Source: Balamuthia mandrillaris (taxonomy: Eukaryota). From it: 64,000 nucleotides of DNA. The DNA lies in contig JAVKOQ020000027.1 of the NCBI GenBank assembly GCA_031835245.2, positions 1 to 64,000 on the forward strand, read 5' to 3'. The translations under genes and the position numbers were made by a program. The notes below the pieces were generated by a model. It had not been told where the DNA came from. It worked only from the letters and a program-made list of their open reading frames with translations, and searched no databases. Of this stretch, positions 1 through 63,034 are shown one piece after another. Each line of letters opens with the position of its first letter. Within the stretch, counting starts at the first letter, position 1.

Positions 1-153
1 AACCCTACTCAATATCATAACTATAGTTGAAAGTTACCAAAATGCCACCCAAAACTAACCAACATCTTACCCAGTCCAAGTCATAAACATCACAAATATC
101 CCTCCCATCAAAAATGCTTCTATTTACTAACCTTAAGCAAAGGTGTAGGAAAA

Positions 154-4500: not shown

Positions 4501-4811
4501 TGGATAGCAAGTGCCCTGCATGTGATGCTGAGGAAGAAACAGCAGAACACTTCCTGTTAAGGTGTCCTAACCTTTGGGAAGATCGCTTTAGAATCTGGAG
4601 TGTGGACAATGGAAGTGAAGAACAAGTCAGAAAGCTGATTATTGAAGACTGTACAACAAAGCTCATGTCAAGTGGAAAGAAATGTAACAGAGCTCAAGAG
4701 ATGGAACAATGTAAGCAAAGTTGTAAACGAGTCTGGAGATTATGGGCAGCAAGAGCAAGTTGGAAGCATGGAAGTTCTTCTGCATTTTATCAGTCTTTGG
4801 AAGTAATGTAA
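1506..4811 (+). CDS. LINE ORF2: APE endonuclease + reverse transcriptase + C-terminal CCHC zinc finger
   Basis: 1101 aa. APE motifs (VNSRG, GVCEH, IIGGDW, IVDY, TDHRP), RT motifs ([40 protein letters not shown]) and CPAC...EHFLLRC. Confidence 0.96.
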   Translation: MTSVAFVNSRGWGQEELVSCWADSKQFDIIGVCEHRRMVAPRLEGYRWMGGGAAPGRSGYGRGGAGFFVREGFKGNIRERKEWRTPNSTWVELAGQGCIFIIGIVYLPPGGTVDNFKVTLAAIEKRILDVVKEGRPLIIGGDWTARVGKGWNGRGESTYNTRGKVLVEAFKRLALSLPQLEEEAPVFTWRAGKRKSIVDYVVAWRWTGKVVGDRWQAWTDHRPLVVELKAPADNCGGVWMERWKWKSYSEEDRKRRWREYKRGCKRFFKGEEWKAMVKKTREGTATVEDLWSKWKKGLWDCAMRWFGRERRLIGATTSRARKPWWTAELTSLNKQVAIAHAQWLREGKNDGKAREEFVELRKRFVKLWRANKWDWMKWKRQENIKEMQKWIGNMWRIVAKRRAEPKAVRAHHGSTAAFKEHWAKLGRKDSSIGSLHREEAGPEGLPWSGSNWLKKESFNLAWRKRLRVGKAAGVDNIDGEMMKYGGKHVQDATWPLIKVIENQGIFPKEWKQGVVIPLHKAGDPQNPANYRGITLLCNAAKVFEGAILVHLNIQAREQGWISNCQGGFRKGRGVMDQVWRLKKCLMKRSKERTYIALMDISKAYDMLDHDILARTLRKRGAEEAAVGIITEWYHGMTSVIRMNGQLSEEFLVERGVKQGGVLSPFLFNVYIDVVARKLQAAEEKERGDKARNVCLLFADDLAVVASDPFELQRRLNVAVEAVNALGLQFNAKKSVVLVQGKKAHFQEWRLKGEAGKRVKEAKYLGLWFEESGEWTTHAKERITKAKQALYSLRQRGANAQGLGTRTAQIAAEAIVKSTLSYGLCMTELSKSWWKKIEAVWNETARSVLQVHRRTVAGVCRAELGWLTIKACCELERQAVIHHAERQDGHFELLEEVSQASEEEGEKNEGEGGDGTTVVEKKAMRMRALTRVAKMEYAAEGERGTRAWLWHNFLTNGRCLVGQQRSLVITNPRKERLMNAIRCGGLPIGKKWGSIQQSEVDSKCPACDAEEETAEHFLLRCPNLWEDRFRIWSVDNGSEEQVRKLIIEDCTTKLMSSGKKCNRAQEMEQCKQSCKRVWRLWAARASWKHGSSSAFYQSLEVM

Positions 4812-5858
4812 GCAAGGAAAAGAGGAAAAAGGAAAGGGAAAGAAAAGGATAGCTAGATGATACAAAGTTGGTCTGAAATCTCATTAAACACCTTTCACTT
4901 GTGAATTGAGTAACAATTGGGAAGGCATTGAGGATGAGGGAGTAAGAAAAGTAAGAGTACACTATGTATGTACAAGGCTTACTTTTTATGTATAGATTGG
5001 TGTTGCTCTCAGAGCAAATAAACTTTTTATTACTACTACTACCTACCCAGCACTTTCAAGTTTTCCACTTGTTTGATGTGAGAAAATACTGATAAACTCA
5101 GAATTTTGGAAAAACTTGATTATGCACAGTAATATCTATAATGCAAATAATTATTTTTATTTTTTTTCTAGTTGTGTAGGAAAAGTTCTTCTTGAGTTTT
5201 ACCTTTTTGACACTGGGCTCAAACTACTTGATAGTCCCTTGAAGAATGACTTAAGTAGGCAGACAGTCCCTTTTCTCTCCCTCTCTCTTTTTCTCTCTCT
5301 TATTCTTTCTTCTCCCTTGTCTTCCAGTCTTGAACATGGGTTCTGAGCCGGTTCTGTTTTTGGGTGGTAAGTTGAGAAAGAGGAAGAAAGAAGTGAAAAG
5401 AGCTGTGGGTGAAGGGAGAGAGGGAGGAGAGGAAGAAAGTGAGGGAGAGGAAAAGAGAAAGGAGAGAGGGAGAGAAATGAGACCTTCTTTCTTTCATTCT
5501 ATTAAAGGTCTTCTCCACACCCATCCCTGGGAGTCACTCTTTGGTTGACTGTCAGGCCAATAATCATGATACTACTCTCCAAAATGCCTGGACCACAAGG
5601 AAACAAAGGTGACAAGAAGGAAGAATATGTGTGTAATGCTAACTAAAAGAAGAAAGGAGATAACGGAATAAAAGGAGGAAGGCTGGTGATATGACAGCAG
5701 CAATTAATGCACATCATGGATGTCAATAGGAAGAAAGGAAGTACTCAACACTTTGTTTAGAGCAAATTGTTCCAGGGCTCTCTGGCAAGGGAGTGTTTGT
5801 GATGAAAGCAATGTTGAGTTTTAACCCATTTTCATTCAGAAATTGAACAAGCAAAAAA

Positions 5859-13900: not shown

Positions 13901-16900
13901 CTCAGCTCGAAGAGGAAGCGCCAGTATTTACATGGAGAGCTGGAAAACGAAAGAGCATTGTGGACTATGTGGTAGCATGGAGATGGACGGGCAAGGTAGT
14001 TGGGGACAGATGGCAAGCTTGGACCGATCATCGACCACTGGTAGTCGAGTTGAAGGACCCAGCAGATAATTGTGGCGGGGTTTGGATGGAACGATGGAAG
14101 TGGAAGTCCTACTCGGAGGAAGATCGCAAGAGGAGGTGGAGGGAGTACAAACGCGGGTGCAAGCGTTTCTTCAAAGGAGAGGAATGGAAGGCCATGGTCA
14201 AGAAAACACGGGAGGGAACAGCTACTGTTGAAGATCTTTGGAGCAAGTGGAAAAAAGGATGGTGGGATTGTGCAATGAGATGGTTTGGTAGAGAAAGGAG
14301 ACTGATAGGAGCAACAACGAGCAGGGCAAGGAAGCCATGGTGGACAGCAGAGTTAACATCCTTGAACAAGCAGGTAGTGATAGCCCATGCTCAGTGGCTA
14401 AGAGAAGGAAAGAATGATGGAAAGGCCAGAGAGGAATTTGTGGAACTCAGGAAAAGGTTTGTGAAGTTGTGGAGCGCCAACAAATGGGACTGGATGAAGT
14501 GGAAAAGACAAGAGAACATCAAGGAAATGCAGAAATGGATCGGCAACATGTGGAGGATAGTGGCAAAGCGTAGAGCAGAGCCCAAAGCAGTTAGGGAGCA
14601 CCACGGTAGCACGGCAGCCTTCAAGGAACATTGGGCAAAGCTGGGAAGGAAGGATTCTTCCATTGGGAGCTTGCATCGAGAGGAAGCAGGTCCAGAAGGA
14701 CTGCCGTGGTCTGGTAGTAACTGGCTTAAGAAGGAGAGTTTTAATCTTGCATGGAGGAAAAGATTGAGGGTGGGCAAAGCAGCTGGGGTGGACAATATTG
14801 ATGGGGAAATGATGAAGTATGGAGGCAAACATGTGCAAGATGCAACTTGGCCGCTGATCAAGGTCATTGAGAACCAAGGCATATTCCCCAAGGAGTGGAA
14901 ACAGGGGGTGGTTATTCCCTTGCATAAGGCAGGAGATCCCCAGAATCCAGCAAACTATAGAGGTATTACTCTCCTATGCAATGCAGCCAAGGTGTTTGAA
15001 GGAGCTATCTTGGTACAATTTAACATACAAGCAAGAGAGCAAGGGTGGATAAGTAATTGCCAGGGTGGATTTAGAAAAGGAAGGGGAGTCATGGATCAGG
15101 TGTGGCGGTTGAAGAAATGCCTGATGAAGAGAAGCAAAGAACGTACCTATATTGCTCTGATGGATATCAGCAAGGCATATGACATGCTTGACCATGACAT
15201 ACTGGCAAGGACATTACGCAAAAGAGGAGCAGAAGAGGCAGCAGTGGGTATCATTACAGAGTGGTACCATGGTATGACGAGTGTTATTCGCATGAATGGG
15301 CAGCTTTCAGAGGAATTTCTGGGGGAAAGAGGAGTTAAGCAAGGAGGAGTTTTGTCTCCATTCTTGTTCAATGTATACATTGATGTGGTGGCAAGAAAGC
15401 TACAAGCTGCAGAGGAGAAGGAAAGAGGAGATAAAGCAAGGAATGTTTGCTTGTTGTTTGCAGATGACTTGGCAGTGGTGGCCAGCGACCCATTTGAGCT
15501 TCAGAGAAGATTGAATGTAGCAGTGGAGGCAGTGAATGCTCTGGGACTTCAGTTCAATGCAAAGAAATCAGTGGTGCTAGTACAAGGAAAGAAGGCTCAT
15601 TTTCAAGAGTGGAGACTGAAGGGGGAGGCTGTGAAACGGGTGAAGGAGGCCAAGTACCTGGGACTGTGGTTTGAAGAAAGTGGGGAATGGACAACTCATG
15701 CCAAGGAGAGGATCACCAAGGCCAAGCAAGCCCTCTACAGCCTTAGGCAGCGGGGAGCCATTGCCCAAGGCCTTGGTACACGCACTGCCCAGATTGCTGC
15801 AGAGGCTATTGTCAAGTCTACCTTGTCATATGGATTATGTATGACAGAGCTTTCCAAATCATGGTGGAAGAAGATCGAAGCAGTGTGGAATGAGACAGCA
15901 AGAAGTGTATTGCAAGTTCATCGAAGGCCTGTGGCGGGGGTTTGTAGAGCAGAATTGGGCTGGTTGACCATCAAGGCCTACTGTGAGTTGGAAAGACAAG
16001 CAGTAATTCATCATGCTGAGAGGCAAGATGGCCACTTTGAGCTACTTGAAGAGGTAAGCCAAGCAAGTGAAGAGGAAGGGGAGAAGAATGAAGGTGAGGG
16101 AGGTGCCGGAACGACAGTTGTTGAAAAGAAAGCCAAGAGGATGAGGGCCTTAACTCGAGTAGCCAAGATGGAGTATGCAGCTGAAGGAGAAAGAGGAACA
16201 AGAGCATGGCTATGGCATAACTTCTTGACAAATGGAAGATGTTTGGTTGGACAACAACGGTGCTTAGTGATTACCAACCCAAGGAAAGAACGTTTGATGA
16301 ATGCTATTCGCTGTGGTGGACTGCCTATTGGAAAAAAGTGGGGATCCATTCAGCAGTCTGAGGTGGATAGCAAGTGCCCTGCATGTGATGCTGAGGAAGA
16401 AACAGCAGAACACTTCCTGTTAAGGTGTCCTACCCTTTGGGAAGATCGCTTTAGAATCTGGAGTGTGGACAATGGAAGTGAAGAACAAGTCAGAAAGCTG
16501 ATTATTGAAGACTGTACAACAAAGCTCCTGTCAAGTGGAAAGAAATGTAACAGAGCTCAAGAGATGGAACAATGTAAGCAAAGTTGTAAACGAGTGTGGA
16601 GATTATGGGCAGCAAGAGCAAGTTGGAAGCATGGAAGTTCTTCTGCATTTTATCAGTCTTTGGAAGTAATGTAAGCAAGGAAAAGAGGAAAAAGGAAAGG
16701 GAAAGAAAAGGATAGCTAGATGATACAAAGTTGGTCTGAAATCTCATTCAACACCTTTCACTTGTGAATTGAGTAACAATTGGGAAGGCATTGAGGATGA
16801 GGGAGTAAGAAAAGTAAGAGTACACTATGTATGTACAAGGCTTACTTTTTATGTATAGATTGGTGTTGCTCTCAGAGCAAATAAACTTTTTATTACTACT

Positions 16901-42095: not shown

Positions 42096-42368
42096 GGTGG
42101 TATTTGATGGTCTTGGTAAGCAAACACTGACAGGCAGAAGGTTAGGCGGAGAAGATCTGCGCCCTGGCTGGAGCGAGCAGTGAAAAATAAATTTAAATCC
42201 TTCCTTCTCGTTCTTCTTTTCTTTTTTCCGAGGGCCAGAATGGATGAGGGGTGGATGAGGGGGATAGGCAGAAAGCCTTCTTCTCAGAATTGATCGGTTT
42301 TTTAGATCAGCGGGTGAGTGATCACTTTCGGGACGACACAAGAGAAAAATGAGAGAGAAATCCAAGTG

Positions 42369-42480
42369 GATAAGAGATAGAGGAATAAGGGAGAGGATAA
42401 GAGATAGAGGATAAGGGATAGAGGATAAGGGATAGAGGATAAGGGAGAGGATAAGGGAGAGGATAAGAGATAGAGGATAC
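42369..42480 (+). repeat. Tandem ~14-bp (GATAGAGGATAAGG-like) minisatellite
   Basis: Directly visible, upstream of TIM17. Confidence 0.85.
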
Positions 42481-42667
42481 GGGAAATCCCGATGACATTC
42501 GTCTTTTGGGCCAATGAGCATTTTTCCCGCCAAAACAACCCTTCCTTCTCCCACGTCTTCGAAGGCAAAGTGGTGGGTTGGGGTGTGGGGTGGGGTGAAT
42601 GGAATGGATGCTCATGCTGCTGCCGCCAATAAACTTTTGGTACTCGTCATTCGCCTTGACACTTTTT

Positions 42668-43052
42668 TTTTTGGTCAGGAACTTCTCCCTCATCCTTCTG
42701 CCAGAGTTCAGGAGCCAGCAGATGGTGCGGCGAGGCCACCGACGCATTGGCTCACGAACGGCCAGAGCCATGCTCACCTGGTCCCACTATCGCTTCAGGC
42801 AGAGGCTCCTCAACAAGGCCAAGCAATTTCCGTCCTGTACGGTCTGCCTCTGCGATGAGGAATACACCTCCAAGACCTGCGGCAAGTGCGGCCAAGTCCA
42901 CCACCAGTTGGGGGGAAACAAGACCTTTCGGTGCCCAACCCGAGTGTGGCTACCAGGCCGATCGAGATGCCAACGCCGCCCGAAACATCTTGATCCGCTT
43001 TTTTACGTTACAAGCACTTACCACCTCCTCCTCCTCTGTGAGGGGGCGGTAG
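42668..43052 (+). pseudogene. Fanzor2 / IS607-TnpB-like nuclease, 5'-truncated C-terminal fragment (RuvC-II, zinc finger, RuvC-III) with one frameshift
   Basis: FLVRNFSLILLPEFRSQQMVRRGHRRIGSRTARAMLTWSHYRFRQRLLNKA...DEEYTSKTCGKCG...LGGNKTFRCP, frameshift at ~42935, then ECGYQADRDANAARNIL. Confidence 0.9.
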
Positions 43053-43113
43053 GCGGTAAGGTTGCTTTGGTGCCGGCACCGTTGCTTATAGCGAGTCGTA
43101 AGACAAGCCGTGA
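43012..43113 (+). ncRNA. Candidate Fanzor omegaRNA scaffold
   Basis: Stacked hairpins overlap and follow the Fanzor stop: a long stem at 43012-43067, GGTGCCGGCACC at 43069-43080, TTGCT-TAT-AGCGA at 43082-43094 and GTC-GTAA-GAC at 43095-43104. The position matches known TnpB/Fanzor omegaRNAs. Confidence 0.55.
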
Positions 43114-44800
43114 TTACACCCCAAACTTGAACCTGCTGCGGTACGCCTCGTACCATGTGCTTGAGGTTGAGGTTGTGGTGAGGGGAGCGGCAGGGATGTC
43201 ACGGGCCTGGCGTGCTTGGCCCAGTGCCTGGAATGAAAGGTAATCTGCGCAGTCAACTTCACCCACGAACCGAAACTTGAGCGGGTGACCCAGCAAGGAC
43301 CTGACGAAGGTAGGATTGTAGTAGGAAAGCCCGATTTTGCCTGCGGAGCTAAGCCTTGCTTTGAGAACCGCTCCGCGTGTTTTGTTCTCCCCGAGCTTGA
43401 ACGAGGCACCAACGGTGAGCCGTGGGATAGTCTCCCAATGATATTCCATTGGCGCATGTTGGTTTGACTCGTCTTCATCGTTTTCGTGCAGTGGCCCTTG
43501 GTTGGGTTTGTGATCCTCAGCCTGGTAACTTTGCTTGGCCCAAGTTACTTCTGCTGCCAAGGAGAACCTGTCGGTGATACTCTCGTAATATCGTGCCCCC
43601 ACAGAGGCGCAGGACCCATACCCTTGACTAAACAGGGTTAGTCGGTAGGTGCGATATCCATCCACATCACTGCCATTATCAACGGTTGCAGTACTCCTTT
43701 GGATGTGTGCTGCCAACGACAGGGCCAGCTTTTCTTGCTCAACGCTTCCTTCCTCCAAATCAGAAGCCAGTTGGCATCCCGCGACTAGTTGGTAGTAAGA
43801 GGTCTTACCACTGTTGCTCTGATCCATCTTCTCCTTCTCCTGCTGGATGGAGGACCCGTTGTTGCCGGCAAGGCGGTGGTTCCACAAGGCAAGGCAAAGT
43901 TTAGCCCTTGCGGTTTGTTGGGGCAGTCGCAGATGGGCGTAGAGGTGATACCAGTTGGTGGCGTGAGTTAGCATTACTTTGGAGGCCCACTTGTTCTTTT
44001 TTTGGTGGCGTCTGAGCCAATGTCCTCGCACACCCAGCTTCACACCCTCGATGTCCTTATTGCCGAGAGTAATGTCGATATCATCATGCTGTAGCTCGTA
44101 GGCCAACATGCCCACTTCCTTCTTTTCAGTCGGCAGAAGATAACCTGTGGCGTGGAGCTCACCCTCAAGCCCTTCCACTCCAAGAAAGTCTTCCGCCATG
44201 ACGGCGCCACTCAGCTTGTCCCATCCATTAGGTTCAAGACCAGCCTTGTTCACGAAGGTGAGTCCGCTAGACCCGTGTACATACTTTAAGCCAAGGGACG
44301 CAGCATCGAAGGTGTCAACCCCACAAACCTTGCCTATGCTCCCTGCTTTCCTATTCCGCCTGCCCACGAAAAACAGCCCCTCTCGGCGTTGCTCGCAAGT
44401 GAAGGACTTCAAAGTCAAACCACCCACCCACCCAGTAAGTTCAGTAGTTTGAATGGAACGAACGAGAGGAGGTGCCTACCATTCCCTTCACCTTTGGCAA
44501 TGGCAAGCGTACATAGCTATTTAGACCTGAACAAGACCAGTTGGACCGAAACAACAAATCTAAAACAATTATGGCGGTCAGAAAGTAGTAGCCGTAGTCG
44601 TAGTAGTAGGGGGGCGCAAAGAGATCAAAAAAAATAAAATAAACGAAGAGAAAGAGAAAAAGAAAAAGAAAAAGAAAAAGAAAAAGAAAAGAGAAGAGAA
44701 GAAAAGAATAGCAAGTACCTTCACAGCTGTCGGAAAGTTCCTCAAAAGCGGGCACTTCTTCCCAGGGATCATCCTCTGTGGCAGCGTAGTTGGTAAACAT
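43114..44800 (-). CDS. Divergent eukaryotic porin (VDAC/Tom40 superfamily) with long loop insertions (3 exons)
   Basis: N-terminal VPAFEELSDSCE-DLL resembles the VDAC helix (PPxFxDLGKxxxDLL). C-terminal LTVGASFKLG...VLKARLSSAGKIGLSY...FRFVGEVD...FKFGV resembles the last VDAC strands. Confidence 0.6.
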
Positions 44801-44913
44801 TACAGCTTTTCTGTTCTTTTTCTTGTTGTTGGTTTTATTTTGTTTATTATTTGCTTAACAAATTTTCGAAACAAAAAAATGAGCAGACAAAATAACCACA
44901 GGGAGGCCATTGG

Positions 44914-45119
44914 AAGGTCTTGTTTCCCCCCAACTGGTGGTGGACTTGGCTGCACTTCCCGCAGGTCTTGGAGGTGTATGCTTCATCGCAGAGGCAGACT
45001 GTACAGGACGGAAATTGCTTGGCCTAGTTGAGGAGCCTCTGCCTGAAATGATAGTGGACCAGGTGAGCATGGCTCTGGCCAACGTGGCTGTGGTCTTGCC
45101 GCACCATCTGTTGGCTCCT
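44914..45119 (-). pseudogene. Second, decayed Fanzor2 fragment in inverted orientation
   Basis: The reverse complement aligns to ~42710-42928 (GGCCAGAGCCATGCTCACCTGGTCC...CAGTTGGGGGGAAACAAGACCTT) with indels and a stop. Confidence 0.88.
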
Positions 45120-45297
45120 CGGACCAAGACCTCCTCTGCATGAGATCCAGCTAGGCGTAGCTTACTGATCCGTTTGAAGTCCTCTTTGTCCCATTCAAGG
45201 AATGCCACTGAAGGAGATAAAAGATCAAGTTCCTTAACAACGGCAATGGAGAGGACAATAGCCTGTTGGAAACTCCTCAGTGCTACCGCAGTGACGC

Positions 45298-45423
45298 CGT
45301 TGGCTGGGCCATTACTACCTCTGTGTCACAGCATTGAAGCTCATAGGTGAGAGCCAAGCCCGTGAGCACCAAAGGAGAGAAGCAGGCATCATCACCTTGG
45401 ACCCAGGAGTTCACACTTTCATG
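45298..45423 (+). pseudogene. Fanzor2 fragment carrying the WED end and RuvC-I motif
   Basis: Translates RWLGHYYLCVTALKLIGESQAREHQRREAGIITLDPGVHTFM, matching the G-x-YYLC...ENQ...IALDPGVRTF pattern. Confidence 0.8.
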
Positions 45424-47129: not shown

Positions 47130-47346
47130 CAAGCTGAGGAAGAAACAATAAAACACTACCTGTTAAGAAGTCCTAATCTTTGGGAAGATTGCTTTAAAAG
47201 AAGTTTATTTTCTCTTAGAGCAACACCACACTATACAAAAAAAGTAAGTGTTGTACTTACACAGTGTACTCTTACTTTTCTTACTCCGTCATCCTCAATG
47301 CCTTCCCAATTATTATGATAGTTCACAAGTGAAAGGTGTTGAATGA
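47130..47346. mobile_element. Two short diverged LINE fragments (ORF2 zinc-finger region on +, 3' UTR on -)
   Basis: Similar to ~4527-4590 and to the reverse complement of ~4880-5025. Confidence 0.75.
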
Positions 47347-47560
47347 AGTAGTAGGTATGTTTTAATAGTGTAGAGTTGGTTTGTTTGAGAGTTTGACTCA
47401 TGTGTTTCTGCCAGGTCTTGGATAGAAAATGAGCTTGGAAGGTGAAACACTGGTATTTGATGCACTATGGTTCAGAGTAGCAGTGAGTAGATTTTCATTC
47501 TGTAAAGTTTGTCTGCAAGAGAGTTTATGGCCTTTTTTTTCCTATGTAGTGTTGATGAGA

Positions 47561-47765
47561 GATAAACCCTGTGGATCAACAAAGGGACAGCACGTAAGTG
47601 ACTCTGGGTTTATTTACAAGAAAAGAGGTGTGGACCAAAGTGTGTGCTTTGAGTGTGTCGCCCAGAAAAAGGGAAAATAAAAAAGGATGAGAGAATTTGG
47701 GGTATCCAGGGAGAGTGTCAACAGGAAGTCATAATGATGCAAATTGTTGGTTTTCCAACAATAGC
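47561..47765 (+). repeat. Interspersed ~200-bp repeat of a second family (possible LTR), copy 1
   Basis: GATAAACCCTGTG...GTAAGTGACTCTGGGTTTATT...AAGAAAAGAGGTGTGGACCAAAGTGTGTGCTTTGAGTGT...GGTATCCAGGGA is repeated at ~50786-50985 and inverted at ~59506-59655. Confidence 0.75.
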
Positions 47766-50093
47766 AACCTGTGCTCTACTGCCACTGCTATCTCAGGTAG
47801 AAAATGAGTTTAGAAGGAAAACCACTTGTGGTTGATGTGCCATGATACAGAGTAGTGAAGGGTATGCTCTCATGGTGTTGTTGGTTTAAAGAGAGCTAGG
47901 TTTTGTTAGAACCTGAGCATAGAACCAAGACAGGAACAAAGAGAAAGATGGGAACCAAACATATTTAAAGAGAACAAGTGTGTTTTTCTGTGTTGAAAAA
48001 GTATTTATAATTGAGAAGGCAACCAAGGACTTCTTGGTTTCTCTGTTTTTAAGTTCTAGGCTCAGGAAAGTTCCTTGGGAAAGTTCCAGGGAAGGCAAGA
48101 GAAAGATCTTTAGAATGGCTTGGTATTGACATGCTTTATGATTGATGGGCAGATCAACTTTCTTCAAGAGGAAAGGTGGAACTAAATCACGAACAGGTTG
48201 ACCGATGAGATCTTCTAGGCAATAAGCACTATAAAAAGGACCAAGGTACTTTGGATCAGTTTTAGTGTTAACACCAAAGTTTACAAGCATTATAGTGTCA
48301 CCAGAAGCAAAGGAGACAAGAGGAGCTTTCTTGTTAAGCAGTGAAGATTTCATCCTCATTGATCATCTGGTGTTTGTCCAGAGATTTGAGGAGCTTGTCC
48401 TGTGAGGCCTTGAGGAGTTGGATGGAAGCTTGCTCCTTTTAAATGAGAAGACGAAATCTGTGGGGGATGATTCATCCCAACATTGAGCACTGTGCTTGTC
48501 ATTGTCGCTCATTGTGGTGAGGTTGCTTTTTTGCTTGATCAATACAGTGTTGGTAAACTCTGTACTATTATCTGATTGGGAAAACCAAAATCACAGATAA
48601 CTAGTATAGCGATAAGAGTGCTTTTGTCAGAGAGAGGCCAAAGAAGAGTGAAGTGAATAGCCATATCAACTAGCACCAGTATGTAGGAAAAGCCATGTTT
48701 GTCAGAAGGCCAGAAGTATCATTCATTCCAGATTCAATTGAAGATATGGGAAGCACCTTTATGAGTTTCAAAGTGAAACTTGTAAAGAAGTTCTTGTTGT
48801 TGTTCCAATGAGTCTTATCCTGGAATGTCATGACAAAGGCAGAAAAATCTTTCAATAAAGAAGAAAAAGAGATGATGAGAGATGATGACTCTTGTGCAGA
48901 CAAGGTGAAAGATGAAGATGAGGAGGTCTTAGCACCAGACAGAGTCTTTGCAGATTGAGGGATTATCCCCTGATTAGACCAACTGAATCATCCTCTTCCC
49001 AAAATTCTTCAAATAGAGTCAAGAGAAGCAGTTTTCCAGGATCATTTGTACTCAAGGATAATGTAGGCCCAGTTAAGCATATAGTGTTTAGAAGTAAAGA
49101 GATAAGTGAGCCTTGTGATTGGTGAAAAGGGTTAGATGTCATCCACTTAAACAGAATTGATAGCCCAAGGGACAATATAAACACATACTGCAGTAAGTTA
49201 ACCAGAAGTTTCCTTTTTGGGAATGGCAAGGATGGGACTGTTCAAAGGGCAATCATCTGGGGCAGGAATGATGACTTGATGCTTGGCCCAGGATTCAATT
49301 TGCTCATTAACAGCATGGTAGGCGTTAGGAAGGAGATACTGGTGTTGGAATATGGGTTGATGATTATTCATATTGAGATGCAACATCCTAGTGAAGAGGA
49401 GAAGAAAGCCCAATTGGAAGCTGTTGGTTAATATTAGAGGTCTTAGATAGCATTGACAATATGTTGCTACTCAGATGAAAGAAGAGAGACTTCTCACAAA
49501 TTGCTTGAAAGTCAGAAGACATTGGAATAGTCAAGAGGCAAAGTAAAAAGCAGAAGGGAAATTGATGAGAATACCACTCATTTCAAAGCTCAATTTCTTC
49601 AGCATATCACAGCCAAAAATGACTGTCTCACTTTGAGAGAGCAAAAGAATGTTGAAGTGATGATAAAAACAAAACTTTCCACATGCAATCAAAACAGAGA
49701 GGGCTACACCATGAACTTCTGCTACCAAGTTGTTAGCGCCCAGGGTCATGAATGATTTCATTGGATGTGGAACTTCTTAGCAGTTTCCAAGTTGATAAAT
49801 GAGCAAGAAGCACCAATATCAAGAAAAGTGGAAACTGGATGGTTGTTCACTAATGCAGGAACACTTGAAGGAAGAGGCATTGCTGGCGTCAAGCTGAAAA
49901 AGAGAATCAGCTTGGAGCTGGTTGATAGCACAATTATATTCCTCATACAAATCAGTATGAAGAGTGAACAAAGAATCATTGCATAGGAGAGGTAGGAGCC
50001 AAGTCATCAACAGAGTTAAGCAAAGTTGGTAGCTTCTTCTTAGGGAGCAGGCACTCATTGGAGTAATGGCCTTTCTGGTTATAGTTACAGCAT

Positions 50094-50477
50094 TGTTGGT
50101 AATTACTAACATAATCAACTCTTTCTTTGTTTCTTTCTTCATTCCTTTCTCCTTTTCTTTGACAGTCTCACATCAGCTATCATCAATCTTTTATGACAAC
50201 ACTGAGCCATTCCAAAGATCTTTCTCCTGCCTGGACTTTCTCAAGCCTAGAACTGAAGAACAAAGAAACCAAGAAGTCTCTTCTCAACCCCGAGCCCCTG
50301 TCCTTCCTTGGTTGTCTTCTCAACAGAAAATACTTTTCCCACAACCAAGAACAAACAGACAAACAAACGAAGAAACAACTCACTCACAAACATACTTGTT
50401 TTCTCCATCTCATTAAATACATTTGGCTCCTGTCTTTCTCTTTGTTCCTGTCTTGGTTCTATGCTCAGGTTCTAACA
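50094..50477 (+). mobile_element. Solo LTR with GCAT target site duplication
   Basis: TGTTGG...CTAACA, with GCAT at 50090-50093 and 50478-50481. Homologous to 59817-60207. Confidence 0.9.
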
Positions 50478-50785
50478 GCATGCAACATAGCTCTTGGAAC
50501 AAAGTTGCTAGGGATGGTCCAGAAGAGGAGGGACCAGAAGGAGTAGATGAAGTACCAGACGATGATAAAAAGGTGTTAGCTGAACCATTGGGCTGTTTCC
50601 TGCATCAGAGCACATGACAATTAGATTTCTCATGTCCAAATGTCTTGTGGATCTTACAGTAAAGTCGCTGCTTCTTCTTTTTGCTATCATTGTCAGTAGG
50701 AGTCGTTTAATTAGGGTGGTCCCAGAGGTTGCTTTTAATCGCCTGGGTGATATTGATTGCTTTATCTAAGGAGTCTTGATGGGGG

Positions 50786-50985
50786 ATAAACCCTGTGAAT
50801 CAAGAAAGGGACTGCATGTAAGTGACTCTGGGTTTATTCACAAGAAAAGAGGTGTGGACCAAAGTGTGTGCTTTGAGTGTATCACGAGGAGAAAGGGAAA
50901 ATAAAAAGGGTTGAGAGAATTTGGAGGGTATCCAGGGAAAGTGTTGACAGGAAGTCATAATGACGCGAATTGTTGTTTTCCAACA
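50786..50985 (+). repeat. Interspersed ~200-bp repeat, copy 2 (inside the Gypsy gag region)
   Basis: Homologous to 47561-47765. Confidence 0.75.
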
Positions 50986-51886
50986 GGAGCAAGGAGCCTT
51001 TGAAAGGACAGTACCAATGTATATGCATCAAATGTCCTTAGGAAGGGCTTGTTTACCAGCTGGTCACAGAGGGATTGATGTCAATGGCCAAAAGCTCAAA
51101 CAGTCTCACTAGGTTTGGCCTTGAAACTGTGATACTCATCTTGAAGCTTGGATTCATACTCAGGAGATGTAAAGATGCCAAACCACCAGCAGAAGTAGGC
51201 AGTGGCGGTTGATTAGTGTTTCCTGTGGCTGTGCTTTGTACCTGTTGCTGTTGTGTCTGTTGTGAAGCTTCCATCATCAAATGGTTTGACTCATCAAAAA
51301 AAAATGTTAGAACCAAAACAGGAACAAAGAGAAAGATAGGAGCCAAATGTATTTAATGAGAAGAAGAGAACATGTAGCAAAAGTTCACACTTAGTAGCAG
51401 GATAGTTCTGCTGAGCCTTGTTCAGCACTTTGTAAAGGAGATGTATTGTCAAGAGCTATACCCACTAGGAAGGATAAAGAAGAATCAGGCTTGCTGAGCA
51501 CTGGTGACAAAAAGCATCCAGCAGGACAGTAAGGCTAGTAAACAGAGGAATGAAGCCACAAAGAAAGTTAACAAAACTAAGGAACACTATGAAAATGTGA
51601 GCCTAGATGCATACCAAAGAGAAATAGAGGAAGGAACACACATGTGGATTAATCCATCAATGTAATGAGTAGCACATATTAATATCCAGCAAGACAACAG
51701 CAATGAAATATTGCACAGCAGCAGAAACCTCATCTTGATGCCAAAAGGAGCTTCAATGGCTGCACCTGCCTTGATCTTCATGCTCTCAAGGTCCTCTTCT
51801 TTTCCATCCCTTCAGTGCTTTCTGTTGTGGAGAATGTTCTTGGCTTCAAAGTTACTAGCTTTCTTTGTTGAGAATTACTCTCAATA

Positions 51887-53969: not shown

Positions 53970-56900
53970 GGTAGTAATAAGAAGTTTATTTGCTCTGAGA
54001 GCAACACCAATCTATACATAAAAAGTAAGCATCGTACATACATAGTGTACTCTTACTTTTCTTACTCCCTCATCCTCAATGCCTTCCCAATTGTTACTCA
54101 AATTCACAAGTGAAAGGTGTTGAATGAGATTTCAGACTAACTTTGTATCATCTAGCTTTCCCTTTCCTTTCTTCTCTTTTCCTTGCTATTACATTACTTC
54201 CAAAGATTGATAGAATGCAGAAGAACTTCCATGCTTCCAACTTGCTCTTGCTGCCCATAATCACCAGACTCGTTTACAACTTTGCTACATTGTTCCATCT
54301 CTTGAGCTCTGTTGCATTTCTTTCCACTTGACAGGAGCTTTGTTATACAGTCTTCAATAATCAGCTTTCTGACTTGTTCTTCACTTCCATTGTCCACACT
54401 CCAGATTCTAAAGCGATCTTCTCAAAGGTTAGGACACCTTAACAGGAAGTATTCCGCTGTTTTTTCCTCAGCATCACATGCAGGGCACTTGCTATCCTCC
54501 TCAGACTGCTGAATGGCTCCCCACTTTTTCCCAATAGGCAGTCCACCACAACGAATAGCATTCATCAAACATTCTTTCCTTGGGTTGGTAATCACTAAGC
54601 TCTGTTGTTGTCCAACCAAACATCTTCCATTTGTCAAGAAGTTATGCCATAGCCATGCTCTTGTTCCTTTTTCTCCTTCAGCTGCATACTCCATCTTGGC
54701 TACTCGAGTTAAGGCCCTCATCCTCTTGGCTTTCTTTTCAACAACACTCGTCCTGTCACCTCCCTCACCTTCATTCTTCTCCCCTTCCTCTTCACTTGCT
54801 TGGCTTACCTCTTCAAGTAGCTCAAAGTGGCCATCTTGCCTCTCAGCATGATGGTACTGCTTGTCTTTCAACTCACAGTGAGCCTTGATGGTCAACCAGC
54901 CCAATTCTGCTCTACAAACCCCCGCCACAGTCCTTCGATGAACTTGCAATACACTTCTTGCTGTCTCATTCCACACTGCTTCGATCTTCTTCCACCATGA
55001 TTTGGAAAGCTCTGTCATACATAATCCATATGACAAGGTAGACTTGACAATAGCCTCTGCAGCAATCTGGGCAGTGCGTGTACCAAGGCCTTTGGCAATG
55101 GCTCCCCGCTGCCTAAGGCTGTAGAGGGCTTGCTTGGCCTTGGTGATCCTCTCCTTGGCATGAGTTGTCCATTCCCCACTTTCTTCAAACCACAGTCCCA
55201 GGTACTTGGCCTCCTTCACACGTTTCACAGCCTCCCCCTTCAGACTCCACTCTTGAAAATGAGCCTTCTTTCCTTGTACTAGCACCACTGATTTCTTTGC
55301 ATTGAATTGAAGTCCCAGAGCATTCACTGCCTTCACTGCTACATTCAACCTTCTCTGAAGCTCAAACGGATTGCTGGCCACCACTGCCAAGTCATCTGCA
55401 AACAACAAGCAAACATTCCTTGCTTTATCTCCTCTTTCCTTCTCCTCTGCCACTTGTAGCTTTCTTGCCACCACATCAATGTATACATTGAACAAGAATG
55501 GAGACAAAACTCCTCCTTGCTTAACTCCTCTTTCCACCAGAAATTCCTCTGAGAGCTGCCCATTCATGTGAATAACACTCGTCATACCACGGTACCACTC
55601 TGTAATGATACCCACAGCTGCCTCTTCTGCTCCTCTTTTGCATAATGTCCTTGCCAGTATGTCATGGTCGAGCATGTCATATGCCTTGCTGATATCCAAC
55701 AGAGCAATATAGGTGTGTTCTTTGCTTCTCTTCATTTCTTCAACCGCCACACCTGATCCATGACTCCCCTTCCTTTTCTAAATCCACCCTGGCAATTACT
55801 TATCCACCCTTGCTCTCTTGCTTGTATGTTCAATTGTACCAAGATAGCTCCTTCAAACACCTTGGCTGCATTGCATAGGAGAGTAATACCTCTATAGTTT
55901 GCTGGATTCTGGGGATCTCCTGCCTTATGCAAGGGAATAACCACCCCCTGTTTCCACTCCTTGGGGAATATGCCTTGGTTCTCAATGACCTTGATCAGCG
56001 TCCAAGTTGCATCTTGCACATGTTTGCCTCCATACTTCATCATTTCCCCATCAATATTGTCCACCCCAGCTGCTTTGCCCACCCTCAATCTTTTCCTCCA
56101 TGCAAGATTAAAACTCTCCTTCTTAAGCCAGTTACTACCAGACCAAGGCAGTCCTTCTGGACCTGCTTCCTCTCGATGCAAGCTCCCAATGGAAGAATCC
56201 TTCCTTCCCAGCTTTGCCCAATGTTCCTTGAAGGCTGCCGTGCTACCGTGGTGCTCCCTAACTGCTTTGGGCTCTGCTCTACGCTTTGCCACTATCCTCC
56301 ACATGTTGCCGATCCATTTCTGCATTTCCTTGATGTTCTCTTGTCTTTTCCACTTCATCCAGTCCCATTTGTTGGCTCTCCACAACTTCACAAACCTTTT
56401 CCTGAGTTCCACAAATTCCTCTCTGGCCTTTCCATCATTCTTTCCTTCTCTTAGCCACTGAGCATGGGCTATCACTACCTGCTTGTTCAAGGATGTTAAC
56501 TCTGCTGTCCACCATGGCTTCCTTGCCCTGCTCGTTGTTGCTCCTATCAGTCTCCTTTCTCTACCAAACCATCTCATTGCACAATCCCACAATCCTTTTT
56601 TCCACTTGCTCCAAAGATCTTCAACAGTAGCTGTTCCCTCCCGTGTTTTCTTGACCATGGCCTTCCATTCCTCTCCTTTGAAGAAACGCTTGCACCCGCG
56701 TTTGTACTCCCTCCACCTCCTCTTGCGATCTTCCTCCGAGTAGGACTTCCACTTCCATCGTTCCATCCAAACCCCGCCACAATTATCTGCTGGGTCCTTC
56801 AACTCGACTACCAGTGGGCGATGATCGGTCCAAGCTTGCCATCTGTCACCAACTACCTTGCCCGTCCATCTCCATGCTACCACATAGTCCACAATGCTCT

Positions 56901-58839
56901 TTCGTTTTCCAGCTCTCCATGTAAATACTGGCGCTTCCTCTTCGAGCTGAGGCAACGAGAGGGCCAGCCTTTTGAAAGACTCCACCAACACCTTTCCTCT
57001 CGCGTTGTAAGTAGATTCACCTCTACCATTCCATCCCTTTCCAACCCTGGCGTTCCAATCTCCTCCAATAATCAGGGGTCTTCCTTCCTTGACCACGTCC
57101 AGGATTCTTTTCTCAATCGCAGCCAAGGTGACCTTAAAGTCGTCCACGGTACCTCCTGGAGGGAGATACACTATACTGATTATAAAGATGCAACTCTGTC
57201 CCGCCAGTTCCACCCAAGTGGAGTTAGGCGTTCGCCACTCTTTCCTTTCTCTGATGTTCCCCTTGAAGCCCTCTCGAACAAAGAAACCTGCGCCACCCCT
57301 TCCATAGCCACTCCTCCCTGGAGCAGCCCCTCCACCCATCCACCGATACCCCTCCAAGCTAGGGGCAACCATCCTCCTATGTTCGCACACTCCAATAATG
57401 TCAAATTGCTTACTGTCAGCCCAACAGCTGACCAATTCCTCTTGTCCCCAGCCCCTAGAGTTGACAAACGCTACTGAAGTCATTGGGTCTCCTCTCCTTC
57501 CTCCTCCACAATGTCAGACCAGTTGGCAGCACCATGATACTCCTCCTCAGCCAGCGCGATGCTTGAGAGATCCAAAGAGCTGTCCAAGGCCACTGTTCCA
57601 ACATTCTCCTCCTTTTCCTTCTTCTTCTCCATCTTTCTTTGCTCTTTAGGCTTCCACAGCGGTTTACCTTCATTCTTGGCTTCTTCAATTCGGGCTTTGC
57701 CCACCCACCAGCGGGTAAAACCATACAGCCTGGCTCTTTCCGCAATAATGTCTTCGGCAGCCTGGGCCGTCTCCAAAGTAACTCCCCAATGCTGCGTGCC
57801 ATTCTTCTCTCCTACTTTCCACACTCCGACGTGCTTGAGCCCCAGCTCGAAGATCCTCTCACTTACCTTTTCCTTCTTAAGGTCCTTACCGCTCACCACA
57901 ATCGATCTGCCCTCCACCGCCCCTACCTTGGAGTAGGGACTGGCAAAGCCATACTTTGGTTTTACTGTAGACCAATAGTTCGGGTCGGTTACTGTATCTT
58001 TGGTCCACGTCCTCCTGTATATGTTGGAGTTATCCTGCCAACATATCCCTTGTTCCTTTGCCATTTATTCCTTCCAGTATTCCAAGCTTGGCGCGCTGAC
58101 CGTAGTTGCCGTTGGAGGGAAATTCCTTTCCGCAGTAATCATATCACACCGCGGAGCTGATCCGACCACCTCCGCGTAAGACCGTTGGGAACCCAGAGTA
58201 AGGCCGCCTTTGGTACTATTTGCACTTCCTTTTTCCACCATAAGATTATTGATCTCCTTGTCGAGGGATTCAATCAGGTCCCTGAATCGTACAATCACTG
58301 CGAGTGAGAGTACGCCTGCCTCGGAGAGCTTACCACACTCGTGAGAAACACGGCTAATACAATCAAACAGCAGCGCCACTTGACTATTGGTTCGCTCCTT
58401 AACGCCGTCTGCACTGACTGAGTCCGAATCAATCTTCCCCTTGGGCACAACACTTGTCCCTTCCTCTCGGCGGGGCGAATCCGCTACCGAGTTACACTGA
58501 TCCTCTGCCCCTCTGTCGTCCTCCTCCTTTTGGTTCACCCTGGGAGAAGGAATCTTGACTGTGGTAGTGTTCAGGTGCCCATACTTTTGCACCGCCAACT
58601 TGAACGCTTCCTCCAGAAACTGATTTAGCTTGTCCCCTTTGACAAAAACAGGATCTTTGCCTCTTTTGCACAGCTTGCAAGCGGGCTTCCACGAACGATT
58701 ACCGTTTAGGGTCCCCAGTCTAAGACGTTCCTTCATGGCCAGATCCACCCATCGACGTAGGACCTGTTCCCTCTCCTGACTGTCAATCAATTCAGTGCTC
58801 TTGCGTGGCAGAGTCCTATTTTTCCGCATTTTTCCCCCT
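53970..58839 (-). mobile_element. Full-length LINE copy 3, disabled, with 13-bp TSD
   Basis: CTTACTTGTATAT at 53957-53969 and 58840-58852. ORF1 (58829->57480) has TAA at 58065. ORF2 (from 57483) has a frameshift at ~55735 and a stop at 54422. Confidence 0.95.
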
Positions 58840-59130: not shown

Positions 59131-59505
59131 ACAAAAAGACCTTCTATTATTTTCCTTTTTTCAATTAACTCTACTTCAAGGCAAACAACTTTGTGTTTCT
59201 TCTTCCTCCATCATCATTCTTTCTCAACCAACATAGATAGACCAAGGAAAACAATGAAAGGAGTAGAATGTTTGTAGTTATCAACAAATTGCTTGCAAGG
59301 AAGTACTTTCTTTCTATTTGTTTGTTTGACTGTCTCAACTGTTTGCCACAGAACAATCTATTTATCAATTCATAGCAAAGCAAAAAGGCAGAGACTCAGT
59401 GCCCTTGAAATCATTTTTCATCTTCATTGAGGTATTGTTTTGTTATACCATTCTATTGGAAAACCAAGGATTTACTTCAGTATGACTTCCTGTTGATGAT
59501 CGCCT

Positions 59506-59655
59506 TGGATACCCCAAATTCTCTTATCCCTTTTTATTTTCCCTTTCTCCTTATGACACATTCAAAGCACACACTTGGGTTCACACCCATTTTTCTTGTG
59601 AATAAACCCACAGTTGCTTACATGTCATCCCTTGATCTGCAGGGCTTATTCCCTG
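59506..59655 (-). repeat. Interspersed ~200-bp repeat, copy 3 (inverted, diverged)
   Basis: The reverse complement resembles 47561-47710. Confidence 0.65.
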
Positions 59656-59816
59656 TCCACAATTCTCTTAATACTTATCCCTATCTCTCCTTGTTTATAT
59701 ATATTTCTTTCTTTCATTCTTATAAAAGGTTTTTCCTTATGTCCATTAAGTTGGTGTCTGTTAGGCTGTTTTCCTACTAGCCTGATCACAAGGCTATAAC
59801 AAAGGTAGTGTAATTT

Positions 59817-60207
59817 TGTTGGCAACTGCCAACATAACCAACTCTTTCTTTGTTTCTTTCTTCATTTCTTTTCTCTTTTCTGTCGACAATCTCACGTCAG
59901 CTATCATCGATCTTTTATGTCAACACCAAGCCATTCCGAAGATCTTTCTCCTGCCTTCCCTGGAACTTTCCCAAGCCTAGAACTTAAGAACAAAGAAACC
60001 AAGAAGTCACTCCCCAACCCCGAGCCCCTTTCCTTCCTTGGTTGCCTTCTCAACTATAAATACTTTTCCCACAACCAAGAACACACAGACGAACGAATGA
60101 AGAAACAACACACTCACAAACACACTTGTTTTCTTCCTCTCATTAAATACGTTTGGCTCCCATCTTTCTCTTGGTTCCTGTCTTGGTTCTATGCTCAGGT
60201 TCTAACA
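59817..60207 (+). mobile_element. Solo LTR with ATTT target site duplication
   Basis: TGTTGGCAACTGCC...GGTTCTAACA, with ATTT at 59813-59816 and 60208-60211. Confidence 0.9.
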
Positions 60208-60592
60208 ATTTCCTTTTACTTGCTGGAATTATCCTTTTTCAAAATGGTAGATACATCTTGAGCTCTTTCTTCCCAGGTGATTAGGTTTCACTCTTTCTTT
60301 TTCTTCCAAAATATGTTCAAAACACCTTACAATTGCTTGGTGCATAAAAAGTTCCCAGTATAAAAAGATTTTCTGGGGCACTGTTTGTGTTCATAATTGA
60401 CTGAAAAAAAATGGTTGGGGAACGAGCCGCTTCAATTTGGTCCTATCATGTCGACATGAGGCACGCCAAAGTTCTCGTGTCGACAAACCAAAAGAAGGAA
60501 ACTTTAAAAAAAAGATTCGTTCAACTTTACCCAAGATTAAAGACCAGTCCCCACAAACCAAAAAAAAAATACAAACAAAAAATACACACATA

Positions 60593-61241: not shown

Positions 61242-63034
61242 ATCATTTCTGTTTCTTTCGTTATTAACATATTTATTTCTCACTGTTTCTCTTTCTCTTT
61301 TTTCCTTCCTTTCTCCCTTTCTTTCTCTTTTTACTCTACAGGACTCAAGCTGGTCATCATTTGAGAAAATATGGAGGAGGGTCTCCTGTGCCAAAGCCAG
61401 TGCCGCCTATGTTCCTGCGCAAAGTATCTGATGACGTTATTGCAACTGTTCAGGACTACTGCATGAAGAACTCCCGCCCAGCCGACAACAAAACAGTAAC
61501 GCTCAAAAGAAAACAAAAAGCACAGCCCGCTGAAGTTGTTCCCCTCCGTTATTGGAATAAGAGCATCATCGCTGTCTGGCAGTCCTTCCAAAAGGTCTTT
61601 CCTGAGACAGACATTAGCCTAAAAACCTTTCGAAAGTATGCTCCTCCACAAATCAAACGCTGCAAAAGACGAACAGCTGTCTGCAGCAAATGCCTCAACA
61701 GAGCAAAGTGTGAACAACAGCTGAAACAGCTTCTACGAAAGATGGAGGCTTCCACAGAAGAAGGAAGACAGCTTCAAGCCTTGCGAAAGGAAGAAGAGGA
61801 GGTCACAAGCCTTCCACGTTCCTGTCTCCTTGGGTTGTGTGCTCATGACCTGCACCAAAACCCATCCACAACTGCTTCTGTCTCTTCCTCTTCCATCTCT
61901 TCCTCCCTCATTGCTCCAATCCCTTTCGTTGGAACAACTTCCACTCTCACAACTGCACCAGCTGACCTTCTTCTTGAAGCTGAAACTTGGCCAAAACACA
62001 TTACTTGCTTACGAAGAGAAGTGGAACACTATTACCACCACCAAGAACATGTAGAACAGCAAAAACAAAGCTATCGTCAACAAAAAGAGCAACTCAAAGC
62101 TCAAACAGAAGGCATTCTTGTGTTGGACTACAAAGAAACTCTTCGCCTAGGACAGAGTCTGGATGAAGAAACACGAACCTTCTATAAACAGCCACAACGA
62201 GCAGTCTTTGGTGCTGTTCTCTTGTACCGGGAGGCAGAGGGACAACCTTTGCGTATGCACTACTTTGATGTGGTGTCTGCTGTGCTGATGAATAACTCTT
62301 GGATCACGGTGCGATGGCTAAGGGAGATCTTCGCATGTCCTGAATGGAAGCAGTTCAACTTCAAAACGATACATGTGTGGATGGACAATGGACCGAGCCA
62401 CTTTCGTACAGGAGAGACCTTCTTTTATTTTCTTTCAATGATGTGTAAAGACGCTGGCATTGCTGATAAGCTCTCTATCAACTTTTATGCAGATAACCAC
62501 GGCAAGAGTATCTGTGACTGTCACTTCTCCATGGTATCGAAGGCTGTTTCCAAGTGGACTAAACATCAAAACGAAGAGGGCATCAACAACGAACTGTGGA
62601 CATCACAGGACCTCAAGGCTTGCCTTGACCAGAAGTTCTCCGAGTGGCAAGAGCAAACAAAACAAAAAAACAAACGATGAAGAAAAAGCACAAAGCCAAA
62701 GAAGGAGTGGAATTACTCTGTGTTGATTCGTGATGATACTCCTCTTACCACCAACTCCTCTCACTCTTCTTACAATCAAGCTCTTCCTAACGACTTGAAA
62801 GTGTATCATCACTTCCTCATCTTCGCCAATCCATCCTATCAGCCTTCATCTTCACTTCCAGAAACAGTCCTTGCCGCTATTTGGTCCAGTCATACAACTC
62901 TCACGCCTGTAAAACTCAAGTACAAGCACACCTCTCCACCTCTTCTCTCAAGCGCTCAATTTCTCCACCAACTTTGTGGACTGTTGGAAAAGGTTTGCTG
63001 GCCCGTGAAGCAAAGCGTCGAAGAATACTGCAAG
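60593..63034 (+). mobile_element. Intron-containing DDD transposase, Sola2-like, with in-frame TGA at 62678-62680
   Basis: Spliced model MGKLVTQ...LSG|GEVGK...SKAW|TQAGHHLRKYGGG. Contains CSKC...HxxH, LVLDYKE, VWMDNGPSHFR and NHGKSICDCHF, and the frame continues past the TGA. The 3' end and TIRs were not identified. Confidence 0.7.

What the first reader, a model, noticed from the sequence alone, without database searches (positions are those of the whole stretch)
42668..45423. Scrambled Fanzor2 (eukaryotic RNA-guided nuclease) locus holding all three RuvC motifs in pieces
Seen: three fragments lie within 2.8 kb. (A) 42668-43052 (+) has ILLPEF, TARAMLTWSHYRFRQRL, DEEYTSKTCGKCG and DRDANAARNIL. 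(B) 44914-45119 (-) is a decayed inverted copy of A. (C) 45298-45423 (+) has GHYYLC...IITLDPGVHTF. Known: these are IS607-TnpB/Fanzor2 signatures, including Pro at the canonical RuvC-II Glu position and the relocated Glu just before the zinc finger. Inference: a Fanzor2 family has been mobile in this genome. Fragment A has only one frameshift (at short C-runs, possibly an assembly error), so an intact and possibly uncharacterised full-length copy may exist elsewhere. No intact nuclease gene is present in this window.
Basis: partly seen in the sequence, partly recalled or inferred. Interest (0 to 1): 0.9.

Follow-up and report, generated by a model that had tools for sequence, protein, structure and literature searches.

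The report
Recently jumped Fanzor2 piece in amoeba
A broken, shortened copy of a jumping gene that encodes a CRISPR-like RNA-guided DNA cutter (Fanzor2) sits in the tail of a host gene in one sequenced sample of what is likely the brain-infecting amoeba Balamuthia but is missing from three others, so this family has likely been moving recently, by a route that is still unproven.

Summary
The motifs are real and the family is Fanzor2, but this is not one scrambled gene. It is two separate insertions on either side of a porin-like host gene. (1) A belongs to a ~620-bp derivative (about 42495-43116) of a multi-copy element: left end, internal deletion of at least 1.5 kb, nuclease tail, and a folded guide-RNA scaffold cut short at its 3' end. 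Contigs of 3 of 4 DNA runs show the empty site and 1 of 4 the filled junction, so the insertion is likely recent. (2) B plus C are one older, inverted, decayed copy. Eleven NCBI proteins named Balamuthia mandrillaris are close copies; 0 of 11 is whole, yet most reads carry the open frame at A's frameshift and the family is transcribed. It nests among IS607 loci but has lost the overprinted tnpA motif, two gene models begin with a C2H2 finger, and A lacks GG cores and terminal repeats. No intact gene or nuclease activity was shown. The scan had not noted this family before.

The parts
42495..42666 (+). Left part of the element (left boundary uncertain by a few bases, 42492-42498); holds TTTTGGG at 42504-42510 and the first exon of several gene models
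   Evidence: Depth rises from about 258 to 25,617 at 42495 in X1 and likewise in the other three runs; loose ends before 42494-42501 and behind 42666; 88% identity to residues 1-41 of P0123 at 42514-42639
42667..42670 (+). Internal deletion joint in a T run; about 500 codons plus introns are missing
   Evidence: Other copies continue behind 42666 and before 42671 with other letters, the latter encoding DDLHKKLVSW; comparison with P0124
42671..43052 (+). Fragment A: C-terminal Fanzor2 remnant (Pro at canonical RuvC-II 42701, relocated Glu 42857, zinc finger, RuvC-III DRD 42960)
   Evidence: the Glu aligns with E467 of mimivirus Fanzor2 9b0l (residue counted by hand)
42933..42936 (+). Frameshift: two letters fewer than in most other copies
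   Evidence: Two extra letters in 9 of 10 reads of X20 and 8 of 17 plus 2 of 14 reads of X21; 158.8 of 176.9 contig depth in X11; the same shift as A in P0124 and P0129
42960..43116 (+). Predicted omega-RNA scaffold, lacking its likely last 10 nt; hairpin 43069-43080 with loop CCGG
   Evidence: Fold z -3.55; 2 of 151 control windows reach -3; homologous hairpin and loop/right-end pairing in relatives; other copies continue for 17 shared nt
43114..44475 (-). Host porin-family (Tom40/Mdm10/VDAC-like) reading frame; its stop TAA (43114-43116) lies at the element's right junction, directly after K-F-G-V
   Evidence: PF01459 E 7.2e-06, 26 bits, cut-off 28.4; single-copy contigs in X1 and X4
44905..45196 (-). 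Fragment B: decayed 3' part of an older copy (residues about 453-469, weak, and 526-600 of P0124), with an 11-nt and a 1-nt deletion and an in-frame stop
   Evidence: in one 1300-nt X1 contig with 0 differences
45199..45423 (+). Fragment C: inverted middle part of the same older copy (residues 280-322 and 402-442, RuvC-I DPG at 45400), head to head with B
   Evidence: tblastn E 7e-14 and 4e-29 within the 650-nt segment

Best explanation
Fragment A is the tail of a non-coding, internally deleted copy of a multi-copy Fanzor2 element that likely inserted recently into the last codons of a porin-like host gene, probably as a whole-element intermediate released by a still unidentified enzyme encoded elsewhere and joined in imprecisely by host repair, while B and C are likely one older, inverted and decayed copy. 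Shown: family identity, element extent, internal deletion, empty and filled junctions in different runs, family transcription. Inferred: intact copies elsewhere make a ~560-600 aa nuclease (C2H2 finger, HTH, RuvC, zinc ribbon) that binds a 3' omega-RNA ending in CCGG and cuts vacated donor sites so that repair restores the element, as TnpB does in bacteria. This copy can do neither, since it lacks RuvC-I and the likely pseudoknot strand. Confidence: identity 0.95, recent polymorphic insertion 0.85, mobilisation route 0.4.
For: Identity: best hits are named Balamuthia 'transposases' at 93-94%; best PDB match by sequence (E 5.5e-20) and by fold (E 5.4e-19, rank 1; Fanzor1 SpuFz ranks 38 and 43) is mimivirus Fanzor2. 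Empty site: one X11 contig joins 42377 to 43116 with 59 repeat letters between; the X1 and X4 porin contigs start matching at 43116 and carry 59 and 95 further letters. Filled site: the X6 porin contig starts at 43087, 30 nt inside the element. X1 flank contigs of 1.3-1.9 kb have 0 differences from the window, so the difference is young. Both breakpoints lie within about 17 nt of the family's shared ends, which random copying would rarely give. Transcription: about 10 reads deep over A in both RNA runs, against about 1.5 over a neighbouring repeat that is far deeper in DNA. B and C abut head to head at 45196/45199 and cover adjacent, non-overlapping residues.
Against: No intact copy was seen (0 of 11). 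The filled junction rests on one contig of one run, which may be the window's own source, and its left junction was not listed. The empty-site letters were not printed, so a 0-3 bp duplication cannot be fixed. No mobilising enzyme was found. The species is described as diploid-like with uneven haplotypes (10.1101/2025.02.25.640156, passages), which could blur presence and absence. The RNA runs are unstranded, may come from another strain, and were sampled at 3-5%. The RNA fold window was the best of 4 that were tried over the 3' end (z from 0.07 to -3.55).
Confidence: 0.7

Rival explanations
1. Ordinary IS607 transposition: a serine recombinase encoded by an unseen autonomous copy moves the element through GG cores.
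For: The nearest fetched loci are IS607 with a resolvase (67 of 109 loci with at least 1100 nt upstream). The family sits in a 97-supported clade with such loci (quick tree). It keeps a TGGG near the left end and a likely CCGG scaffold end, like the TGGG and UCGG of PMC10690162 (passages).
Against: The window copy has no GG at either junction and stops short of the CCGG. Listed copies share 7-13 nt outside the TGGG and 7 nt beyond the CCGG, where IS607 flanks should vary. The overprinted DRLxRFG scores 2 of 6 against 5-6 in 37 of 82 relatives. No resolvase in the window.
Confidence: 0.2
2. Fanzor2*: the nuclease and its old IS607 ends were captured inside a eukaryotic cut-and-paste element with terminal inverted repeats and target duplications.
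For: Known in molluscs and Chloropicon (10.1101/2023.08.09.552727, part 4). Listed left flanks are A-rich and right flanks T-rich, which could be a degenerate inverted repeat. tnpA overprint lost.
Against: No inverted repeat between the ends of the window copy among the 25 longest of 58 pairs shown; the window copy lacks the A and T tracts; any duplication is at most 3 bp.
Confidence: 0.25
3. Nuclease-driven spread: Fanzor2 with a nearly constant guide cuts matching sites, and repair copies the element in from another locus without any transposase.
For: All listed loose ends at 43116 (4, 1, 1 and 3 contigs in four runs) share 17 nt and then a T-rich run. Many broken derivatives with breakpoints near 42895-42950. 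No tnpA trace.
Against: The window's target does not resemble the predicted target; that motif is not enriched in the window (2 matches at 2 mismatches, 0.74 expected). 132 loose-end rows were not shown, so the sample of ends is small.
Confidence: 0.15
4. A or B/C are retrocopies made by the host's young LINEs (B/C with a twin-priming inversion).
For: Three near-identical 4.9-kb LINEs lie in the window; the head-to-head B/C layout is what twin priming gives (recalled).
Against: The LINEs end in TAC repeats and two have 13-14 bp duplications; A and B have neither, and A keeps sequence that gene models treat as an intron. A plain DNA inversion gives the same B/C layout.
Confidence: 0.07
5. A is an assembly artefact.
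For: Three of four runs, one with identical flanks, lack it.
Against: The X6 contig crosses the right junction.
Confidence: 0.05

Closest known systems
ApmFz2 / ISvMimi_1 (mimivirus Fanzor2, PDB 9b0l; PMC10530073, passages)
   Same: HTH-WED-RuvC layout, DPG, Pro at RuvC-II, relocated Glu (E467), C4 finger, structured 3' RNA
   Different: ApmFz2 lies in a viral IS607 with TnpA. This family is nuclear, has lost the tnpA overprint, has predicted introns, and two models start with a C2H2 finger
ACa-1/ACa-2 Fanzor2 elements (PMC3627910, section 13; the host Acanthamoeba castellanii is recalled from the name)
   Same: Fanzor2 in IS607-like elements of an amoeba; no TIR or TSD
   Different: They encode a serine recombinase; none was found here. 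No sequence comparison was made
Fanzor2* of molluscs and Chloropicon primus (10.1101/2023.08.09.552727, part 4)
   Same: Multi-copy, eukaryotic, Fanzor2 only, partner transposase unknown
   Different: They have clear TIRs and 4-5 nt TSDs, which this copy lacks; the Chloropicon protein P0116 is not a sister in the quick tree
'Ghost' loci of Fanzor elements (PMC10432273, passages)
   Same: Derivative with both ends and the RNA region but no working gene
   Different: Ghost RNAs can work; this copy has likely lost the 3' pseudoknot strand
Metagenomic IS607 pro-Fanzor loci such as L080, L081, L001
   Same: 40-46% identity over the core; homologous 3' hairpin
   Different: tnpA overlaps the nuclease N-terminus; right ends pair through TAGG instead of CCGG

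Membership tests
Fanzor2 | RuvC-I DPG motif | tested here: met
   45400 in C; D435-P436-G437 invariant in 30 aligned proteins. Deleted from A
Fanzor2 | Pro at canonical RuvC-II and Glu six residues before the zinc finger | tested here: met
   P523 and E575 invariant; E aligns with 9b0l E467; definition from 10.1101/2023.08.09.552727 part 4 and PMC10530073 passages
Fanzor2 | C4 zinc finger followed by RD | tested here: met
   Split by the frameshift in A; continuous in P0125 from the second Cys pair and in a 153-nt X11 contig
Fanzor2 | TnpB-like compact architecture with HTH, unlike Fanzor1 | tested here: met
   PF12323 E 6e-10; 9b0l ranks first and SpuFz1 38th/43rd; no Fanzor1 hit at E 0.1 by sequence
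Fanzor2 | Encoded in a eukaryotic genome | tested here: met
   GT-AG introns in neighbouring genes and single-copy flank contigs; named NCBI copies on 11 contigs
Fanzor2 | 3' omega-RNA | tested here: inconclusive
   Predicted fold and pseudoknot only; no small-RNA data; no Rfam match over it
Fanzor2 | RNA-guided DNA cleavage | not testable with these tools
   Needs an intact copy and a TAM assay
IS607 element | Serine recombinase TnpA in the element | tested here: not met
   None in the window; overprint motif incompatible. A non-overlapping or distant tnpA was not testable, as no genome is held
IS607 element | GG core at both junctions, TGGG on the left | tested here: not met
   The window copy's junctions read GACA and ACA; TGGG lies about 10 nt inside the shared left part
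IS607 element | No target-site duplication | tested here: inconclusive
   A possible ACA repeat; the empty-site letters were not printed
Fanzor2* (captured by a TIR transposon) | Terminal inverted repeats | tested here: inconclusive
   Not seen in the window copy; A-rich and T-rich flanks in other copies
Fanzor2* (captured by a TIR transposon) | Target-site duplication of fixed length | tested here: inconclusive
   At most 3 bp at one locus
LINE-made retrocopy | 3' tail and long duplication like the resident LINEs | tested here: not met

The most novel reading that the evidence does not exclude
A transposase-free Fanzor2 is jumping now in a human-pathogenic amoeba: it carries a eukaryotic C2H2 finger and a nearly fixed guide frozen from an ancestral IS607 target, and spreads because its own RNA-guided cuts are repaired by copying the element in. 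This would be a live eukaryotic system for testing what Fanzors do in their hosts.
Probability: 0.15. Interest if true: 0.8.

Novelty: new variant of a known kind. Interest (0 to 1): 0.5.

Why it matters
The biological role of Fanzors is stated to be unknown (PMC10432273, passage), and their mobility has mostly been inferred from copy similarity. A presence/absence site between near-identical samples, with filled and empty alleles, makes the insertion route and the donor-cutting model testable in a culturable eukaryote. The family would also add a GC-rich nuclear Fanzor2 with an unusual N-terminus to the nuclease catalogue.

Tried and rejected
No whole genome is held, so copies could not be aligned. 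No RNA holder was listed among indexed runs; raw RNA runs were laid instead. The porin-like frame gave no homologue among 7993 candidates, no PDB hit, no Atlas answer and a useless single-sequence model (pLDDT 31.6), so Tom40, Mdm10 or VDAC stays open. The right-end pattern was absent from metagenome contigs, and P0124 alone found nothing in viral contigs. A resolvase search listed 120 of 573 hits with no Balamuthia name; this is weak, as most rows have no name. The 17-nt extension is not elsewhere in the window. An early reading that the IS607 right end is the AGG directly after 43116 was dropped for the CCGG 10 nt further on after the pseudoknot comparison; the partner in the extension has a 0.15 chance by composition alone. 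The careful tree did not finish; only the quick tree is used. The Atlas look-up of the N-terminus did not complete. Supplement searches for Balamuthia in PMC10530073 (2 files) and PMC10432273 (9 files, one scan not searched) gave 0 hits; the first also missed Acanthamoeba castellanii, so it is a weak negative. Supplements of the 2025-26 genome preprint were closed and may list these elements.

Full report
Observation. Six-frame translation confirms every motif of A, B and C at the given coordinates. A matches PF07282 in both frames, and B is an 87.6% inverted copy of part of A. The window is eukaryotic: RNA reads show GT-AG introns in neighbouring genes, and the frames around include aconitase, PGK, Tim17 and LINE reverse transcriptases.

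Family and host. Fragment A's best hits are P0001 and P0002, named 'Transposase [Balamuthia mandrillaris]', at 94% and 93%. Their clusters hold 11 proteins on 11 contigs. I infer that the window is from this species or a very close one. P0124 hits mimivirus Fanzor2 (9b0l) first by sequence and by predicted fold (mean pLDDT 66.6). D435 and E575 align with its D324 and E467, which PMC10530073 (passages) names as predicted catalytic residues. In a quick tree of 72 rows, P0124 lies on a long branch inside a 97-supported clade of 51 rows that includes several resolvase-linked loci. None of the 11 models has all five checked motifs in one frame. P0124 and P0129 share A's shift; P0001 and P0122 shift elsewhere; the others are deleted or rearranged. 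Two models begin with a consensus C2H2 finger, found in 2 of 277 proteins held at that point (Pfam E 0.015, below cut-off). The differing models just before FATSHG suggest an intron there (inference).

Anatomy of A. Depth in four DNA runs rises at 42495 and falls after 43116. The stretch 42514-42639 matches the start of P0123. Other copies continue behind 42666 and before 42671 with coding letters, so the window copy has lost about 500 codons plus introns at a T run. Single long contigs inside the element are roughly 21 times (X1), 5-6 times (X4), 45-56 times (X6) and 11-12 times (X11) deeper than the porin contig; the tool warns that this is no true copy number. At the frameshift, most RNA reads and most X11 contig depth carry two more letters and the open frame. 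Whether this one copy is truly shifted is open.

Empty and filled sites. One X11 contig joins 42377 to 43116 through 59 letters, the length expected for the rest of the local tandem repeat. The X1 and X4 contigs of the porin gene match from exactly 43116 and carry 59 and 95 more letters, and depth over the left flank rises accordingly. The X6 contig instead begins at 43087, the 30-nt overlap expected of a filled junction with no alternative. So 3 of 4 runs look empty and 1 of 4 filled. X1 flanks are identical to the window over contigs of 1.3-1.9 kb, which argues for a very recent event. X6 may be the window's own source. The insertion places TAA directly after K-F-G-V, where the Pfam match suggests the last strand of the barrel; the effect on the host protein is unknown.

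The RNA end. 42960-43116 folds with z -3.55 (best of four windows tried); 2 of 151 control windows reach -3 and none -3.5. Relatives have a small hairpin after the stop. A loose pattern found it in 10 of 100 loci. Of the 7 cases whose loop starts with CC, 5 have a perfect 5-nt partner ending in GG downstream, against 0.47 expected. This fits the pseudoknot described in 10.1101/2023.08.09.552727 (part 5). The window's matching hairpin (43069-43080) has loop CCGGC, and its partner lies in the 17 nt that all listed other copies carry behind 43116 (chance 0.15). I infer a scaffold end at CCGG, 10 nt beyond the window copy's end, followed by 7 shared nt and a T-rich run. This copy's RNA is thus likely crippled, and the guide seed of the sampled copies is likely constant. 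Only 9 contigs support this, and 132 loose-end rows were hidden.

Mobilisation. The Balamuthia proteins cannot encode the resolvase motif at the matching place (2 of 6; 37 of 82 proteins score 5-6). The window copy has no GG core, no terminal repeat among those shown and no LINE-type tail, yet both breakpoints fall within about 17 nt of the family's shared ends. I therefore favour a whole-element intermediate, mobilised in trans and joined imprecisely (0.4 for this step). Captured-TIR, canonical IS607 and nuclease-driven copying remain rivals.

B and C. C covers residues 280-322 and 402-442 on plus; B covers 453-469 (weak) and 526-600 on minus; they meet at 45196/45199. This is one copy with an internal inversion and several deletions. 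It is present unchanged in X1 and nearly so in X4, so it is older. RuvC-I in C therefore belongs with B, not with A.

Literature. Searches for Fanzor with Balamuthia and Fanzor with insertion polymorphism gave 0 papers. Fanzor with C2H2 gave one red-algal genome preprint, seen as a listing only. A genome preprint on the species (10.1101/2025.02.25.640156, passages) calls it replete with unannotated transposable elements and has no occurrence of TnpB or IS605; its supplements were closed. I read parts 1, 3, 4 and 5 of 7 of 10.1101/2023.08.09.552727, section 13 and passages of PMC3627910, and passages of PMC10530073, PMC10432273 and PMC10690162. The library lacks most subscription papers.

Verdict. 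A real but dead derivative of an apparently undescribed, recently mobile Fanzor2 family. It works like TnpB/Fanzor2 by inference, is a Fanzor2 by every sequence test that could be run, and fails the IS607 end and TnpA tests at this locus. New variant of a known kind; interest 0.5.

Noticed in passing
window 145-5042 (+), 12009-16905 (+), 53971-58835 (-): Three LINE copies of 4.9 kb, 97.7-99.2% alike, two with an open 1111-codon endonuclease/RT frame; TAC-repeat tails; 14-bp and 13-bp target duplications at copies 2 and 3. A young, probably active family.
   Followed up: partly
window 42895-42950 and its equivalents: Breakpoints cluster here: end of B, a joint 42935 to 43058 in X1 and X4, rearrangements in P0002, P0121, P0125, P0126, and the frameshift. 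It is close to the start of the folded 3' RNA. Unexplained.
   Followed up: no
window 47223-48425: Non-coding repeats with very high DNA depth (36,000 against about 120 in X1) and almost no RNA reads; related pieces at 50093-51376 and 59453-60208.
   Followed up: partly
window 44441-44854 (-): A short frame starting MFTNYAATEDDPWEE at 44800, followed by a GT, may be the first exon of the porin-like gene; an Mdm10-like reading is recalled, not tested.
   Followed up: no
window 42355-42484: A GAGGATAAGG-type tandem repeat directly left of the insertion varies in length between runs.
   Followed up: partly
window 61268-62677 (+): A 470-codon frame with a weak match to coenzyme F420 hydrogenase beta C-terminus (E 0.001, below cut-off), unusual in an amoeba.
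   Followed up: no
P0136 (1029 aa): A Fanzor2-like protein with an N-terminal ubiquitin-conjugating domain match; may be a gene-model fusion.
   Followed up: no
P0031, P0298, P0302: Fanzor2-like and IS607-resolvase-like proteins named for the fungus Diversispora epigaea.
   Followed up: no
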